The notes beneath the pieces were generated by a model that searched no databases, was not told the origin of the DNA, and saw only the letters and a list, made by a program, of their open reading frames with translations. Shown here piece after piece: positions 43,840-63,720 of a stretch of DNA of 64,000 nucleotides; positions within the stretch are counted from its first letter, which is position 1, and each line of letters starts with the position of its first letter. The DNA is from Escherichia coli O127:H6 str. E2348/69. Its GTDB lineage: Bacteria; Pseudomonadota; Gammaproteobacteria; Enterobacterales; Enterobacteriaceae. A program made the position numbers and the translations under genes. The stretch lies in the NCBI RefSeq assembly GCF_000026545.1, contig NC_011601.1; one strand, 5' to 3'.

Positions 43840-44598
43840 ATGAGCCAAATTTTACTGCAACCTGCTAACGCGATGATTACGCTGGAAAACGTCAATAAAT
43901 GGTATGGGCAATTCCATGTTTTGAAAAATATAAATTTAACCGTACAACCGGGAGAACGGATCGTTCTGTGTGGCCCTTCTGGTTCCGGTAAATCGACAAC
44001 CATTCGTTGTATTAATCATCTGGAAGAACATCAACAGGGACGGATCGTAGTAGATGGCATCGAACTTAATGAAGATATCCGCAATATTGAGCGCGTCAGG
44101 CAGGAAGTGGGAATGGTCTTTCAGCATTTCAATCTCTTCCCTCATCTGACCGTTCTACAGAACTGTACCCTGGCACCGATTTGGGTACGCAAGATGCCTA
44201 AGAAAGAGGCTGAAGCTCTGGCGATGCATTACCTTGAGCGGGTGAGAATTGCCGAACATGCCCAGAAGTTTCCCGGACAGATTTCAGGTGGTCAGCAGCA
44301 ACGCGTTGCCATAGCACGTTCACTTTGTATGAAACCAAAGATCATGCTATTTGATGAACCTACGTCGGCGCTCGATCCGGAGATGGTGAAAGAAGTGCTG
44401 GATACGATGATTGGGCTGGCGCAGTCGGGTATGACAATGTTGTGTGTAACACATGAGATGGGGTTTGCACGAACCGTCGCTGACCGGGTGATTTTTATGG
44501 ATCGTGGGGAAATAGTGGAGCAAGCTGCACCTAATGAATTTTTTGCGCATCCTAAATCAGAGCGTACGAGGGCATTTTTATCGCAGGTAATCCATTAA
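43840..44598 (+). CDS. yhdZ: Amino-acid ABC transporter ATP-binding protein YhdZ, 252 aa
   Basis: ORF track; Walker [13 protein letters not shown] signature [13 protein letters not shown], Walker [12 protein letters not shown]. Confidence 0.95.
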
Positions 44599-44658: not shown

Positions 44659-44778
44659 ATGTCTGGCAGTTCCCTACTCTCGCATGGGGAGACCCCACAC
44701 TACCATCGGCGCTACGGCGTTTCACTTCTGAGTTCGGCATGGGGTCAGGTGGGACCACCGCGCTACTGCCGCCAGACA
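44659..44778 (-). rRNA. rrfF: 5S ribosomal RNA (distal copy, rrfF position)
   Basis: 120-nt reverse-complement match to E. coli 5S rRNA with a few substitutions. Confidence 0.93.
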
Positions 44779-44815
44779 AATTCTTTTCTAATCTGCCGAA
44801 CTTTAACCTAAAAAG

Positions 44816-44891
44816 TGGTGCTGATACCCAGAGTCGAACTGGGGACCTCACCCTTACCAAGGGTGCGCTCTACCAACTGAGCCATATCAGC
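44816..44891 (-). tRNA. thrV: tRNA-Thr (anticodon GGU)
   Basis: Reverse complement reads GCTGATATGGCTCAGTTGGTAGAGCGCACCCTTGGTAAGGGTGAGGTCCCCAGTTCGACTCTGGGTATCAGCACCA, recognised as E. coli tRNA-Thr; located between the two 5S genes as in rrnD. Confidence 0.93.
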
Positions 44892-44903
44892 ACGCTAAAT
44901 TTG

Positions 44904-45023
44904 ATGCCTGGCAGTTCCCTACTCTCGCATGGGGAGACCCCACACTACCATCGGCGCTACGGCGTTTCACTTCTGAGTTCGGCATGGGGTCAGGTGGGAC
45001 CACCGCGCTAAGGCCGCCAGGCA
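44904..45023 (-). rRNA. rrfD: 5S ribosomal RNA (proximal copy, rrfD position)
   Basis: 120-nt reverse-complement match to E. coli 5S rRNA. Confidence 0.93.
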
Positions 45024-45116: not shown

Positions 45117-48020
<2,904 letters not shown>

Positions 48021-48213
48021 TCACAACCCGAAGATGTTTCTTGCGATTCATCATCGTGCTGCGAAAATTTGAGAGACTCACGAACAACTCTCGTTGTTCA
48101 GTGTTTCAATTTTCAGCTTGATCCAGATTTTTAAAGAGCAAATATCTCAAACATCACCCGAAGATGAGTTTTGAGATATTAAGGCAGGTGACTTTCACTC
48201 ACAAACCAGCAAG

Positions 48214-48289
48214 TGGCGTCCCCTAGGGGATTCGAACCCCTGTTACCGCCGTGAAAGGGCGGTGTCCTGGGCCTCTAGACGAAGGGGAC
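48214..48289 (-). tRNA. tRNA-Glu (anticodon UUC) in the 16S-23S spacer
   Basis: Reverse complement reads GTCCCCTTCGTCTAGAGGCCCAGGACACCGCCCTTTCACGGCGGTAACAGGGGTTCGAATCCCCTAGGGGACGCCA, recognised as E. coli tRNA-Glu; it is the only tRNA in the 354-bp spacer. Confidence 0.93.
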
Positions 48290-48374
48290 GTATCAGTCTG
48301 CTTCGCAAGACGCCTTGCTTTTCACTTTCTATCAGACAATCTGTGTGAGCACTGCAAAGTACGCTTCTTTAAGG

Positions 48375-49916
<1,542 letters not shown>

Positions 49917-50040
49917 AAAAGTTTGATGCTCAAAGAATTAAACTTCGTAATGAATTACGTGTTCACTCCTGAGACTTGGTATTCATTTTTCGTCTTGCGA
50001 CGTTAAGAATCCGTATCTTCGAGCGCCCACACAGATTGTC

Positions 50041-50060
50041 TGATAAATTGTTAAAGAGCA
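50041..50060 (-). promoter_or_regulatory. rrn leader boxA antitermination element
   Basis: Minus strand reads TGCTCTTTAACAATTTATCA, matching the boxA consensus TGCTCTTTAACAA. Confidence 0.75.
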
Positions 50061-50100
50061 GTTGCGACGCGGCTTTCAGCTCACTGTCGCGAGGTGGCGT

Positions 50101-50128
50101 ATATTACGCTTTCCTCTTTCAGAGTCAA
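50101..50128 (-). promoter_or_regulatory. rrn P2 promoter
   Basis: Minus strand: -35 TTGACT, 16-bp spacer, -10 TAATAT, then discriminator ACGCCACC. Confidence 0.7.
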
Positions 50129-50208
50129 CCCTGAATTTCAGGATTTTTTCTCTTCGTTGTTACGACCATCTTGTGAAGTGTTTCACGTTGTCGTCTCAAC
50201 GGAGGCGC

Positions 50209-50236
50209 ATTATAGGGATCCCAATTTTTTGCACAA
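50209..50236 (-). promoter_or_regulatory. rrn P1 promoter (AT-rich UP/Fis region extends to about 50340)
   Basis: Minus strand: -35 TTGTGC, 16-bp spacer, -10 TATAAT, then GC-rich discriminator GCGCCTCC; upstream A/T tracts typical of UP element and Fis sites. Confidence 0.7.
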
Positions 50237-50388
50237 GTACTTTTTTGATCTTTTTTTCTGCTTGTTGTTTTTTCACCCTTTTTGCTGCATTCGCACACAA
50301 AACGGTGCTTTTTTGCATACTAAAAGACTTGCACAAGGCCAATAATGCACCCAAAGTCATTAGGAAATCATTTATTGTTGAGGTGAGT

Positions 50389-50943
50389 ATGTCTGATGTT
50401 TTACGCCCATACCGCGATCTTTTTCCACAAATCGGTCAGCGCGTAATGATCGACGATAGCAGCGTCGTGATTGGTGACGTTCGTCTGGCTGATGATGTGG
50501 GGATCTGGCCGCTCGTTGTGATTCGTGGAGATGTACATTATGTACAGATCGGAGCACGCACCAATATCCAGGATGGCAGTATGTTGCATGTCACTCATAA
50601 ATCCTCGTACAACCCAGATGGCAACCCATTAACCATTGGCGAAGATGTCACTGTTGGTCACAAGGTGATGCTCCACGGCTGCACCATTGGCAATCGAGTT
50701 TTGGTTGGGATGGGCTCAATTTTACTTGATGGCGCAATAGTAGAAGATGATGTGATGATTGGTGCGGGTAGTCTGGTCCCACAAAATAAACGGCTGGAGA
50801 GCGGATATCTGTATCTCGGTAGCCCCGTCAAACAGATCCGCCCGTTAAGTGATGAAGAGAAGGCTGGGTTACGCTATTCCGCAAATAACTACGTGAAATG
50901 GAAGGACGAATATCTGGATCAAGGTAACCAGACCCACCCTTGA
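50389..50943 (+). CDS. yrdA: Gamma-class carbonic-anhydrase-like hexapeptide-repeat protein YrdA, 184 aa
   Basis: ORF track 50062..50943; recognised protein starts MSDVLRPYRDLFPQIGQRVMIDDSSVVIGDV at ATG 50389 with GAGGTGA ribosome-binding site; the longer upstream extension overlaps the rrn promoters. Confidence 0.9.
   Translation: MSDVLRPYRDLFPQIGQRVMIDDSSVVIGDVRLADDVGIWPLVVIRGDVHYVQIGARTNIQDGSMLHVTHKSSYNPDGNPLTIGEDVTVGHKVMLHGCTIGNRVLVGMGSILLDGAIVEDDVMIGAGSLVPQNKRLESGYLYLGSPVKQIRPLSDEEKAGLRYSANNYVKWKDEYLDQGNQTHP

Positions 50944-63267: not shown

Positions 63268-63720
<453 letters not shown>

What the first reader, a model, noticed from the sequence alone, without database searches (positions are those of the whole stretch)
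48021..48374. The rrnD-position operon carries a tRNA-Glu spacer instead of the tRNA-Ile/tRNA-Ala spacer seen in K-12 rrnD
Chromosomal context (yhdZ on one side, yrdA on the other) and the distal 5S-tRNA-Thr-5S arrangement identify this as rrnD. In K-12, rrnD has the long spacer with ileU and alaU; here the 354-bp spacer contains a single tRNA-Glu (48214-48289), as in rrnB, rrnC, rrnE and rrnG. This implies spacer replacement by gene conversion between rrn operons in this lineage. It changes tRNA-Ile, tRNA-Ala and tRNA-Glu gene dosage and is a useful strain-typing marker.
Basis: partly seen in the sequence, partly recalled or inferred. Interest (0 to 1): 0.45.

Follow-up and report, generated by a model that had tools for sequence, protein, structure and literature searches.

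The report
rrnD and rrnE swapped their spacers
In the pathogenic E. coli strain E2348/69, the ribosomal RNA operon rrnD carries the tRNA-Glu spacer and rrnE carries the tRNA-Ile/tRNA-Ala spacer, the reverse of K-12, so tRNA gene numbers do not change; this is a rare natural example of a recombination process already known from laboratory work.

Summary
The window is E. coli E2348/69. Its intact rrnD (yhdZ–5S–tRNA-Thr–5S–23S–spacer–16S–yrdA) has a 354-nt spacer with one tRNA-Glu(UUC), where K-12 MG1655 rrnD has ileU+alaU (437 nt). Two independently produced assemblies and about 14 clade relatives agree, so it is not a chimera.

E2348/69's rrnE carries Ile/Ala where K-12 has Glu. The strain keeps 4 Glu and 3 Ile/Ala spacers, so D and E are swapped and dosage is unchanged.

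Among 5,426 complete E. coli genomes, 79 records link a Glu spacer to yrdA. Forty-two of them have the normal four Glu spacers, and 32 of those are confirmed Ile/Ala at rrnE, with none shown to use another partner. Twenty-six have 6–7 Glu spacers and look like collapsed-repeat assemblies, which is shown directly for CFT073 NC_004431.1. CFT073 and Nissle carry a third arrangement (A↔E).

The mechanism is recombination between operons through 16S/23S homology. I slightly favour a reciprocal exchange, because W3110 is the single-crossover rrnD×rrnE product. Two successive gene conversions cannot be excluded, because the spacers within each genome are fully homogenised.

This is a known kind of event and of modest interest.

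The parts
48021..48374 (-). 16S-23S internal transcribed spacer of rrnD, short tRNA-Glu type (354 nt)
   Evidence: It lies between the Rfam SSU and LSU matches. It aligns end to end with K-12 rrnC and rrnE spacers. It is identical to the rrnB, rrnC and rrnG spacers of E2348/69.
48214..48289 (-). tRNA-Glu(UUC) gene
   Evidence: ARAGORN; Rfam tRNA match, 60.1 bits; identical to K-12 gltT/U/V/W in alignment A1; annotated tRNA-Glu in three E2348/69 assemblies.
48331..48374 (-). 16S-proximal spacer block shared by both spacer types (about 44 nt)
   Evidence: Nearly invariant columns 1-44 of alignment A1 across all eight spacers. A role as extra homology for recombination, or in rRNA processing, is inferred and not tested.
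48139..48330 (-). Glu-type-specific core of the spacer (approximate limits); used as the probe in the chimeric surveys
   Evidence: It does not align with the Ile/Ala spacers in A1. The probe gives a median of 5 places per genome, which is the flank plus 4 Glu spacers.
48021..48138 (-). 23S-proximal spacer block shared by both spacer types, here the 'long' variant (CACGATGATGAATCGCAAG)
   Evidence: Conserved columns from about 340 to 461 of A1. The Rfam StyR-44 match at 48028-48136 lies in it. K-12 rrnD and rrnG have the 9-nt-shorter variant.
48375..49916 (-). 16S rRNA gene of rrnD; upstream homology arm
   Evidence: Rfam SSU match, 1578 bits. It carries a variant private to rrnD among the E2348/69 operons (183T), plus 264A, shared only with rrnH. 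From position 265 onward it is identical to rrnA, B, E and H.
45117..48020 (-). 23S rRNA gene of rrnD; downstream homology arm
   Evidence: Rfam LSU match, 2871 bits. It is identical to the other E2348/69 operons except for the hairpin cluster at 23S positions 2203-2215.
45806..45818 (-). Five-base cluster in the 23S gene (positions about 2203-2215) where the window keeps the common E. coli hairpin, unlike the other E2348/69 operons I extracted
   Evidence: The window equals LT827011.1 and LT903847.1 here but differs from CP059840.2. K-12 and CFT073 operons share the window's variant. This marks the most distal possible end of any exchanged tract.
44661..45021 (-). Distal 5S - tRNA-Thr(GGU) - 5S module that identifies the operon as rrnD
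   Evidence: Rfam 5S matches at 44906-45021 and 44661-44776; ARAGORN tRNA-Thr at 44816-44891. K-12 has the same order, rrfD-thrV-rrfF.
49917..50388 (-). rrnD leader and promoter region (not analysed in detail)
   Evidence: It lies between the 16S gene and yrdA. A query that includes it matches 7 places per genome, so part of it is shared by all rrn operons.
50389..50943 (+). yrdA, the unique flank on the promoter side of rrnD
   Evidence: Annotated yrdA in E2348/69 and K-12. Its 184-aa product finds YrdA relatives across Enterobacterales.
43840..44598 (+). yhdZ, the unique flank on the distal side of rrnD
   Evidence: A 252-aa ORF, annotated yhdZ. Its presence shows there is no rrnD-rrnE inversion here (compare W3110).

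Best explanation
The spacer is an ordinary, functional short tRNA-Glu spacer. I infer it is co-transcribed with 16S and 23S from the rrnD promoters and that the tRNA is released by the usual rRNA processing. What is unusual is its position. In the E2348/69 lineage, rrnD and rrnE have exchanged spacer types relative to K-12 and to more than 98% of E. coli, so the genome still has four tRNA-Glu spacers and three tRNA-Ile/tRNA-Ala spacers. The exchange arose by homologous recombination inside the chromosome, using the nearly identical 16S and 23S genes on either side of the spacer as homology arms. I favour a reciprocal exchange: two crossovers between the inversely oriented rrnD and rrnE, one in or near 16S and one in 23S. 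These could happen at once, or as an inversion of the oriC-containing segment followed by a re-inversion with a different crossover point. Shown: the swap, the unchanged dosage, the intact flanks, and the tract limits (16S position 265 to 23S position 2202). Inferred: that the exchange was reciprocal, and how many crossover steps it took.
For: E2348/69 has Glu at rrnB, C, D, G and Ile/Ala at rrnA, E, H. K-12 has Glu at B, C, E, G and Ile/Ala at A, D, H. rrnD keeps both native flanks and rrnE keeps purH and yjaA. The rrnD spacer is identical to the strain's three other Glu spacers, so the source was within the genome. Ile/Ala at rrnD is the majority state: 59 of 60 evenly sampled genomes. Of 42 records with Glu at rrnD and the normal four Glu spacers, 32 are confirmed Ile/Ala at rrnE and none is shown to have another partner. 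They span at least three flank backgrounds: E2348-like, A34 and the K-12-like strain 3908. If the two states were independent, about 2-3 co-occurrences would be expected, given that each is present in roughly 1.5-3% of records. W3110 carries yhdZ-5S-thrV-5S-23S-tRNA-Glu-16S-purH. This shows that a single rrnD x rrnE crossover in 23S is viable, and one further crossover in 16S would give exactly the E2348/69 arrangement without ever unbalancing dosage. The mean number of probe places per genome is 4.97, against 5 expected for the flank plus 4 Glu spacers, so four Glu spacers is nearly universal.
Against: CFT073 and Nissle have a different balanced arrangement: Glu at rrnA and Ile/Ala at rrnD, E, H. 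It involves directly repeated operons, for which the inversion route is not available, so other routes to a balanced swap exist. Seven records have Glu at rrnD with five Glu spacers, which would be one-way conversions if the assemblies are right. Each spacer class is completely homogenised within E2348/69, 2022H047 and apparently 3908, which shows that non-reciprocal conversion is frequent and has erased any donor signal. In strain 3908 the rrnD Glu spacer and the rrnE Ile/Ala spacer both have the short 23S-proximal block, which is not the simple reciprocal product expected from a K-12-like ancestor. The number of independent origins is unknown without a phylogeny.
Confidence: 0.5

Rival explanations
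1. Two successive non-reciprocal gene conversions. One operon was converted first, giving a 5:2 or 3:4 genome. A second conversion at the other operon then restored 4 Glu : 3 Ile/Ala and was favoured by selection on spacer-tRNA gene dosage.
For: According to PMC8022953, Harvey and Hill (1990) found that strains depleted of a spacer tRNA gene recover by conversion of another operon's spacer, at about 1e-6 per recipient per donor per generation. A spacer-spanning rrnE-to-rrnB conversion is documented in the K-12 strain ER2796. Within-genome homogenisation of the spacers shows that conversion is active. Apparent 5-Glu intermediates exist. The A-E swap in CFT073 cannot go through a viable single-crossover intermediate.
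Against: After rrnD becomes Glu, any of rrnB, C, E or G could compensate, yet all 32 determined cases use rrnE. Balanced genomes outnumber 5-Glu genomes 42 to 7 among Glu-at-rrnD records. That requires fairly strong selection against a one-gene imbalance, which has not been measured.
Confidence: 0.4
2. One reading: a single one-way gene conversion replaced the rrnD spacer and altered tRNA gene dosage to 5 Glu: 2 Ile/Ala.
For: The window alone shows only rrnD. A few database genomes do show Glu at rrnD with five Glu spacers.
Against: All seven E2348/69 operons were read: four Glu and three Ile/Ala, with rrnE switched to Ile/Ala. The chimeric probe also counts four Glu spacers in all three E2348/69 assemblies.
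Confidence: 0.02
3. Assembly artefact: collapsed or mis-joined rrn copies put a Glu spacer at rrnD.
For: This does happen. CFT073 NC_004431.1 shows Glu at rrnD and six Glu spacers, whereas the modern assembly CP051263.1 has Ile/Ala there. Twenty-six of the 79 Glu-at-rrnD records have 6-7 Glu spacers, many from the single assembly series CP0101xx.
Against: CP059840.2 and LT827011.1 come from different laboratories, and both give Glu at rrnD, Ile/Ala at rrnE and four Glu spacers. About 14 close relatives assembled by others agree, each with one contiguous 8.4-kb match spanning both flanks.
Confidence: 0.02
4. Glu at rrnD is the ancestral state and K-12 is derived, or the locus was imported from another species.
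For: From memory, not verified here: Salmonella Typhimurium has a Glu spacer at rrnD and Ile/Ala at rrnB (Lehner, Harvey and Hill 1984). E2348/69 belongs to phylogroup B2, which is often placed near the base of the species (also my own knowledge).
Against: Ile/Ala at rrnD is found in 59 of 60 evenly sampled genomes, including genomes whose flanks are very close to E2348/69's and CFT073. The spacer is identical to the strain's own three other Glu spacers, and the flanks are ordinary E. coli sequence. The outgroup scan gave no usable loci.
Confidence: 0.05

Closest known systems
Experimental exchange of 16S-23S spacers between E. coli rrn operons (Harvey and Hill 1990, Genetics 125:683; not held in the library, known to me through PMC8022953, PMC3755535 and memory)
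   Same: The same two spacer types and the same operons. Replacement of a whole spacer through 16S/23S homology. Pressure to keep the Glu : Ile/Ala ratio near normal. Some events were associated with inversions between the operons.
   Different: Those were laboratory mutants selected from deliberately unbalanced strains. Here the state is a natural, inherited, balanced arrangement shared by a clade and seen in about 0.8% of complete genomes.
rrnD-rrnE inversion of E. coli K-12 W3110
   Same: Recombination between the same two operons. It produces an operon with the rrnD distal end (5S-tRNA-Thr-5S, next to yhdZ) and a tRNA-Glu spacer. Maeda et al. 2015 list rrnD as Glu and rrnE as Ile/Ala, perhaps for this reason; I did not check which strain their description refers to.
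   Different: W3110 is a single-crossover product. Its promoter-side flank is purH and the segment between the operons is inverted. In E2348/69 both native flanks are retained and there is no inversion.
Reciprocal translocation of tRNA-Ile and tRNA-Ala spacers between rrn1 and rrn2 of Treponema pallidum (PMC3755535)
   Same: Two spacer types exchange genomic positions among strains while the total complement is conserved. The authors argue for a reciprocal double crossover in 16S and 23S, because both tRNA genes must be kept.
   Different: There are two directly repeated operons instead of seven. Each tRNA there is close to unique, so loss would be lethal. In that species the swap appears scattered across the phylogeny.
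Gene conversion from rrnE into rrnB, including the spacer, in K-12 ER2796 (PMC4444293), and rrn conversion rates in mutation-accumulation lines (PMC8022953)
   Same: Documented, pedigree-controlled transfer of spacer sequence between rrn operons. The rates are high enough to explain the within-genome homogenisation seen in E2348/69.
   Different: Those conversions were between spacers of the same tRNA type (Glu to Glu), or involved the 23S-5S spacer, so they did not move a tRNA type to a new locus.
Salmonella Typhimurium versus E. coli K-12 spacer map (Lehner, Harvey and Hill 1984; recalled from memory, not verified here)
   Same: Between the two species, rrnD carries Glu in one and Ile/Ala in the other, with a compensating difference at another operon, so the total is conserved.
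   Different: It is a fixed difference between species, and the partner is rrnB as I recall. Here it is a polymorphism within a species and the partner is rrnE.

Membership tests
E. coli short tRNA-Glu-type 16S-23S spacer (as in K-12 rrnC and rrnE) | A single tRNA-Glu(UUC) gene and no tRNA-Ile or tRNA-Ala | tested here: met
   ARAGORN and Rfam find only tRNA-Glu at 48214-48289.
E. coli short tRNA-Glu-type 16S-23S spacer (as in K-12 rrnC and rrnE) | 354 nt long, with tRNA-Glu starting 85 nt after the 16S gene and no 86-nt insertion of the rrnB/rrnG type; collinear with K-12 rrnC and rrnE | tested here: met
   Alignment A1: gap-free against K-12 rrnC and rrnE with a few substitutions. K-12 rrnB (440 nt) and rrnG (431 nt) have the extra block.
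rrnD operon (identity by position) | Located between yhdZ and yrdA | tested here: met
   The same order is seen in K-12.
rrnD operon (identity by position) | Distal 5S - tRNA-Thr - 5S module | tested here: met
rrnD operon (K-12 composition) | Spacer carrying ileU and alaU | tested here: not met
   The window has tRNA-Glu. K-12 has alaU and ileU. This difference is the finding itself.
Intragenomic spacer replacement by recombination between rrn operons | The new spacer is identical to another operon's spacer in the same genome, and the unique flanks are unchanged | tested here: met
   The rrnD spacer equals the rrnB, rrnC and rrnG spacers of E2348/69. The flanks are intact.
Non-reciprocal gene conversion (strict sense) | The donor locus is unchanged and the copy number of the converted allele rises by one | tested here: not met
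   The number of Glu spacers is still four, and rrnE has changed in the opposite direction. Two successive conversions remain possible.
Reciprocal exchange (double crossover) between rrnD and rrnE | Each locus carries the spacer that was formerly at the other, with matching junctions | tested here: inconclusive
   The spacer types are exchanged. However, rrnD and rrnE are identical from 16S position 265 to 23S position 2202, and the spacers are homogenised within each genome, so origin and junctions cannot be read.
W3110-type rrnD-rrnE inversion | Hybrid operon flanked by yhdZ on the distal side and purH on the promoter side | tested here: not met
   The window has yrdA on the promoter side. 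W3110 has purH there. At least 56 Glu-at-rrnD records give one contiguous match spanning both flanks.
Collapsed-repeat assembly artefact | Abnormal spacer counts (6-7 of one type) or disagreement between assemblies of the same strain | tested here: not met
   E2348/69 has four Glu spacers in three assemblies, and those assemblies agree at both rrnD and rrnE. For contrast, the feature is met by CFT073 NC_004431.1.

The most novel reading that the evidence does not exclude
In E. coli, the two spacer types move among the seven rrn loci almost only in dosage-neutral ways. Four tRNA-Glu spacers is close to invariant across about 5,400 genomes, yet at least three positional arrangements exist (Ile/Ala at A,D,H; at A,E,H; at D,E,H), and rrnE takes part in both of the characterised variant arrangements. 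If so, spacer-tRNA gene dosage is under strong stabilising selection in nature. Alternatively or in addition, a reciprocal inversion/re-inversion pathway between rrnD and rrnE operates repeatedly, with W3110-like inversions as its intermediates.
Probability: 0.5. Interest if true: 0.45.

Novelty: new member of a known kind. Interest (0 to 1): 0.3.

Why it matters
The practical consequences are small but real.

1. The position of a spacer type is not a fixed property of an rrn operon in E. coli. Operon-specific ITS typing, ribotyping and long-read 16S-ITS-23S amplicon schemes that assume the K-12 map will mislabel about 1-3% of strains, including the reference strains E2348/69, CFT073 and Nissle 1917.

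2. The number of Glu spacers is a cheap quality check on an assembly. Records with 0, 6 or 7 Glu spacers are very probably collapsed rrn assemblies.

3. The near-invariance of the 4:3 ratio, despite positional change, is population-level support for the laboratory finding that the dosage of spacer tRNA genes is under selection.

No phenotype is expected for E2348/69 itself, because its tRNA gene complement is unchanged.

Tried and rejected
1. Outgroup polarity. A genome-contig scan with YrdA returned 80 loci, almost all draft contigs that end 200-500 bp upstream of yrdA, at the rrn repeat, so no outgroup spacer could be read. The Salmonella comparison therefore rests on memory.

2. Identifying the donor in E2348/69. 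The four Glu spacers are identical to each other and so are the three Ile/Ala spacers. The 16S genes vary only at positions 76-264, 456 and 1036, and the 23S genes at two or three sites, so no donor or junction can be assigned.

3. A reciprocity test using the rrnD-specific 437-nt Ile/Ala spacer. Strain 3908 and 2022H047 do carry a 437-nt spacer at rrnE, and in 3908 it matches K-12 rrnD at every variable column. But rrnA is also 437 nt in both strains, so the class is homogenised and the test is uninformative.

4. Counting Ile/Ala spacers from places_in_record. The count is inflated by other tRNA-Ala-like hits (E2348/69 gives 5 places for 3 spacers), so I used it only relatively.

5. Exact genome counts. 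The tool lists at most 60 rows, so I bracketed frequencies from 'spread' and 'best' listings and from two differently ranked chimeric queries, not by enumeration.

6. Reading Harvey and Hill 1990 (PMC1204094). The paper is not held.

7. Literature searches for a published description of natural positional swaps in E. coli found none in the held library.

8. I considered and rejected an rrnD-rrnE inversion as the explanation for the survey hits, because the both-flank query gives contiguous matches.

Full report
**What is in the window.** ARAGORN finds two tRNA genes on the minus strand: tRNA-Thr(GGU) at 44816-44891 and tRNA-Glu(UUC) at 48214-48289. Rfam places a complete 16S gene at 48375-49916, a complete 23S gene at 45117-48020, and two 5S genes at 44906-45021 and 44661-44776. 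The unique flanks are yhdZ (43840-44598) and yrdA (50389-50943). The flanks are 100% identical to three chromosome records of enteropathogenic E. coli E2348/69 (O127:H6), where the same features are annotated. Position and the distal 5S-tRNA-Thr-5S module identify the operon as rrnD.

**Is the comparison with K-12 right?** Yes. In MG1655, rrnD is rrsD-ileU-alaU-rrlD-rrfD-thrV-rrfF with a 437-nt spacer. rrnA and rrnH also carry Ile/Ala (446 nt each). rrnB (440 nt), rrnC (354), rrnE (354) and rrnG (431) carry tRNA-Glu. Aligned with all seven K-12 spacers, the window's spacer is collinear with the short Glu spacers of rrnC and rrnE, differs from them by a few substitutions, and has an identical tRNA-Glu gene. 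About 44 nt next to the 16S gene and about 120 nt next to the 23S gene are shared by both spacer types.

**Is it an assembly chimera?** No.
- The window is base-for-base identical across rrnD to LT827011.1 and its derivative LT903847.1.
- The independently produced CP059840.2 has the same structure and differs only in a five-base cluster inside the 23S gene.
- A query spanning both flanks and the whole operon gives one contiguous match of about 8.4 kb in at least 56 records, including about 14 close relatives of E2348/69 assembled by other groups.

**The twist: rrnE has made the opposite change.** I read all seven operons of E2348/69.

| Operon | E2348/69 | K-12 MG1655 |
|---|---|---|
| rrnA | Ile/Ala, 446 nt | Ile/Ala, 446 nt |
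| rrnB | Glu, 354 nt | Glu, 440 nt |
| rrnC | Glu, 354 nt | Glu, 354 nt |
| rrnD | Glu, 354 nt | Ile/Ala, 437 nt |
| rrnE | Ile/Ala, 446 nt | Glu, 354 nt |
| rrnG | Glu, 354 nt | Glu, 431 nt |
| rrnH | Ile/Ala, 446 nt | Ile/Ala, 446 nt |

rrnE sits between purH and yjaA as in K-12. The strain therefore has four Glu and three Ile/Ala spacers, the same as K-12. The difference is a positional swap between rrnD and rrnE.

**How common is it?**
- A query linking yrdA, the 16S gene, the spacer and the start of the 23S gene was ranked over 5,432 records. All of the top 60 have tRNA-Glu at rrnD. In an evenly spaced sample of 60, only the first row does, and the row at about rank 92 already has Ile/Ala.
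- I then used chimeric queries made of the Glu-specific 192 nt joined to 3.3-3.5 kb of yrdA-side flank. Full coverage means Glu at rrnD, and the number of places in the record then equals the number of Glu spacers.
- With an E2348/69 flank and with a K-12 flank, these queries together identify 79 such records.

| Glu spacers per genome | Records |
|---|---|
| 4 | 42 |
| 5 | 7 |
| 6 | 13 |
| 7 | 13 |
| 1, 3 or 12 | 4 |

- The 6-7 class is very probably an assembly artefact. The 2002 CFT073 record NC_004431.1 belongs to it, whereas a modern CFT073 assembly has Ile/Ala at rrnD. Many of the others come from one assembly series (CP0101xx), whose members show either all-Glu or all-Ile/Ala operons.
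- The credible frequency of Glu at rrnD is therefore about 0.8-0.9% of genomes.
- Across all genomes the probe gives 26,976 chromosomal places in 5,425 genomes, a mean of 4.97 and a median of 5. Five is what the flank plus four Glu spacers would give, so four Glu spacers is nearly universal.

**Association with rrnE.**
- The mirror-image query (purH flank plus the Ile/Ala-specific segment) puts Ile/Ala at rrnE in roughly 92-184 of 5,433 records.
- If the two rare states were independent, only 2-3 genomes would carry both.
- In fact 32 of the 42 balanced Glu-at-rrnD records are confirmed to have Ile/Ala at rrnE.
- One record, PMV-1, is ambiguous because it shows an rrnB/rrnE hybrid operon. Nine are undetermined because the listings stop at 60 rows. 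None is shown to have another partner.
- The pairing occurs in at least three flank backgrounds: E2348-like; A34; and strain 3908, whose yrdA and purH flanks are 99.9% and 99.1% identical to K-12. Shared ancestry inflates the raw count, and I could not build a phylogeny.

**A third arrangement.** Nissle 1917 and modern CFT073 assemblies have Ile/Ala at rrnE but not Glu at rrnD. In CFT073, rrnD, rrnE and rrnH are Ile/Ala and rrnA is Glu, so A and E are swapped relative to K-12. I did not read rrnB, C and G of CFT073; its places count equals that of E2348/69, which fits three Ile/Ala spacers. Other records with Ile/Ala at rrnE that are absent from the Glu-at-rrnD lists, and whose places count suggests three Ile/Ala spacers, include O145:H28 RM12761/RM13516 and O157:H7 493/89. 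Their partner operon was not determined.

**Mechanism.**
- The rrnD spacer is identical to the strain's other three Glu spacers, so the source was within the genome.
- Upstream, rrnD keeps a 16S variant found in no other E2348/69 operon (183T), plus 264A, shared only with rrnH.
- Downstream, the window's version keeps the common E. coli 23S hairpin at positions 2203-2215, which the other operons I extracted have replaced. Any exchanged tract therefore lies between 16S position 265 and 23S position 2202.
- Within that interval rrnD and rrnE are identical apart from the spacer, so the junctions cannot be seen.
- Two routes fit. The first is a reciprocal exchange by two crossovers flanking the spacer. 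rrnD and rrnE are inverted relative to each other on opposite replichores. W3110 carries the single-crossover product (yhdZ-5S-thrV-5S-23S-tRNA-Glu-16S-purH), which proves that such crossovers occur and are viable. A second crossover in the 16S gene would restore gene order and leave exactly the E2348/69 arrangement, without any dosage imbalance.
- The second route is two successive non-reciprocal conversions, with selection restoring 4:3. The laboratory work of Harvey and Hill, as summarised in PMC8022953 and PMC3755535, supports this route. So do the rrnE-to-rrnB conversion in ER2796, the complete homogenisation of each spacer class within genomes, the apparent five-Glu genomes, and the A-E swap between direct repeats.
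- The exclusive use of rrnE as rrnD's partner favours the first route. The other observations keep the second alive. I put them at about 0.5 and 0.4.
- A test based on the rrnD-specific 437-nt Ile/Ala spacer failed. Strain 3908 and 2022H047 have that form at rrnE, but they also have it at rrnA.

**Comparison with what is known.** Exchange of whole spacers between E. coli rrn operons, the pressure to keep the ratio of spacer types, and the occasional association with inversions were established experimentally in 1990. Maeda et al. 2015 list rrnD as Glu and rrnE as Ile/Ala; I suspect this reflects W3110's hybrid operons, but I did not confirm which strain they describe. A positional swap of tRNA-Ile and tRNA-Ala spacers between the two rrn operons of Treponema pallidum has been described and attributed to reciprocal translocation. 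I found no paper in the held library that describes the natural D-E or A-E swaps in E. coli. The finding is thus a natural, clade-level instance of a known process.

**Verdict.** Novelty: a new member of a known kind. Interest is about 0.3. The more interesting reading is that spacer types move among loci only in dosage-neutral ways, perhaps through a recurrent rrnD-rrnE inversion/re-inversion pathway. It is plausible and could be tested with a species-wide phylogenetic survey.

Noticed in passing
window 45806-45818 (23S rRNA positions about 2203-2215): The window (identical here to LT827011.1 and LT903847.1) has the common E. coli hairpin GTTGGCCCGTAATCCGGG in the rrnD 23S gene. CP059840.2 has GTGGGCCCCTTACCGGGG there, as do rrnA, B, C and E of CP059840.2 and rrnG and H of LT827011.1. 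Either the two laboratory stocks of E2348/69 differ by a recent conversion, or one assembly was over-polished.
   Followed up: partly
L010:10698-11051 (rrnB), L014:14391-14744 (rrnG), L008:25197-25550 (rrnC), all E2348/69: All four Glu spacers of E2348/69 are the identical 354-nt short form. The long forms at K-12 rrnB (440 nt) and rrnG (431 nt) are absent. The three Ile/Ala spacers are likewise identical, which indicates complete concerted evolution within each class.
   Followed up: partly
L017, L018, L019 (CFT073 NZ_CP051263.1: rrnD, rrnA, rrnH): Modern CFT073, and by the survey Nissle 1917 as well, has tRNA-Glu at rrnA and Ile/Ala at rrnD, rrnE and rrnH. This is a third spacer arrangement, apparently balanced (rrnB, C and G were not read).
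   Followed up: partly
NC_004431.1 (CFT073, 2002), NC_008253.1 (536), CP009072.1 (ATCC 25922), CP007799.1 (Nissle), the CP0101xx series: These records show 6, 7, 12 or 0 Glu-type spacers per genome. For CFT073 this contradicts a modern assembly, so the rrn copies were probably collapsed or copied during assembly. The Glu-spacer count is a simple quality flag.
   Followed up: partly
NZ_CP011343.2 (K-12 substr. GM4792), rrnD at about 3,402,636-3,409,612: This K-12 derivative has a Glu spacer at an rrnD with both native flanks but only three Glu-probe places, and an IS3 lies within the matched span on the yrdA side. It is either a laboratory-lineage conversion or an assembly problem.
   Followed up: no
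L108:1536-6877 and L107:1589-6687 (strain 3908, NZ_CM128561.1): In strain 3908 the 5S-tRNA-Thr-5S distal module is annotated at rrnA (hemG...mobB), while rrnD (yrdA...yhdZ) has a single 5S gene and no tRNA-Thr. Distal modules seem able to move between operons too.
   Followed up: no
L105:5357-10459 (PMV-1, NC_022370.1): PMV-1 has murI-16S-Ile-Ala-23S-5S-yjaA, an rrnB/rrnE hybrid. That would remove the roughly 36-kb rpoBC-containing segment from its normal place, so it is either a rearrangement or a misassembly.
   Followed up: no
window 48028-48136: The Rfam family StyR-44 (a Salmonella Typhi 'npcRNA') matches the 23S-proximal part of the spacer at 120.8 bits. That family therefore corresponds to conserved spacer sequence upstream of the 23S gene.
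   Followed up: no
L020-L087 (Enterobacterales draft genomes): In most of the Enterobacterales draft genomes returned, the contig ends 200-500 bp upstream of yrdA. This is consistent with a conserved rrn operon next to yrdA that breaks short-read assemblies.
   Followed up: no
PMC4696680 (Maeda et al. 2015), text on operon composition: The paper lists rrnD as Glu and rrnE as Ile/Ala for 'E. coli'. This matches W3110's hybrid operons but not MG1655, so it is a possible source of confusion in the literature.
   Followed up: partly
window 63592-63703: Rfam Alpha_RBS (the alpha operon ribosome-binding-site regulatory element) matches on the minus strand at 102.7 bits, as expected upstream of rpsM in the alpha ribosomal protein operon.
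   Followed up: no
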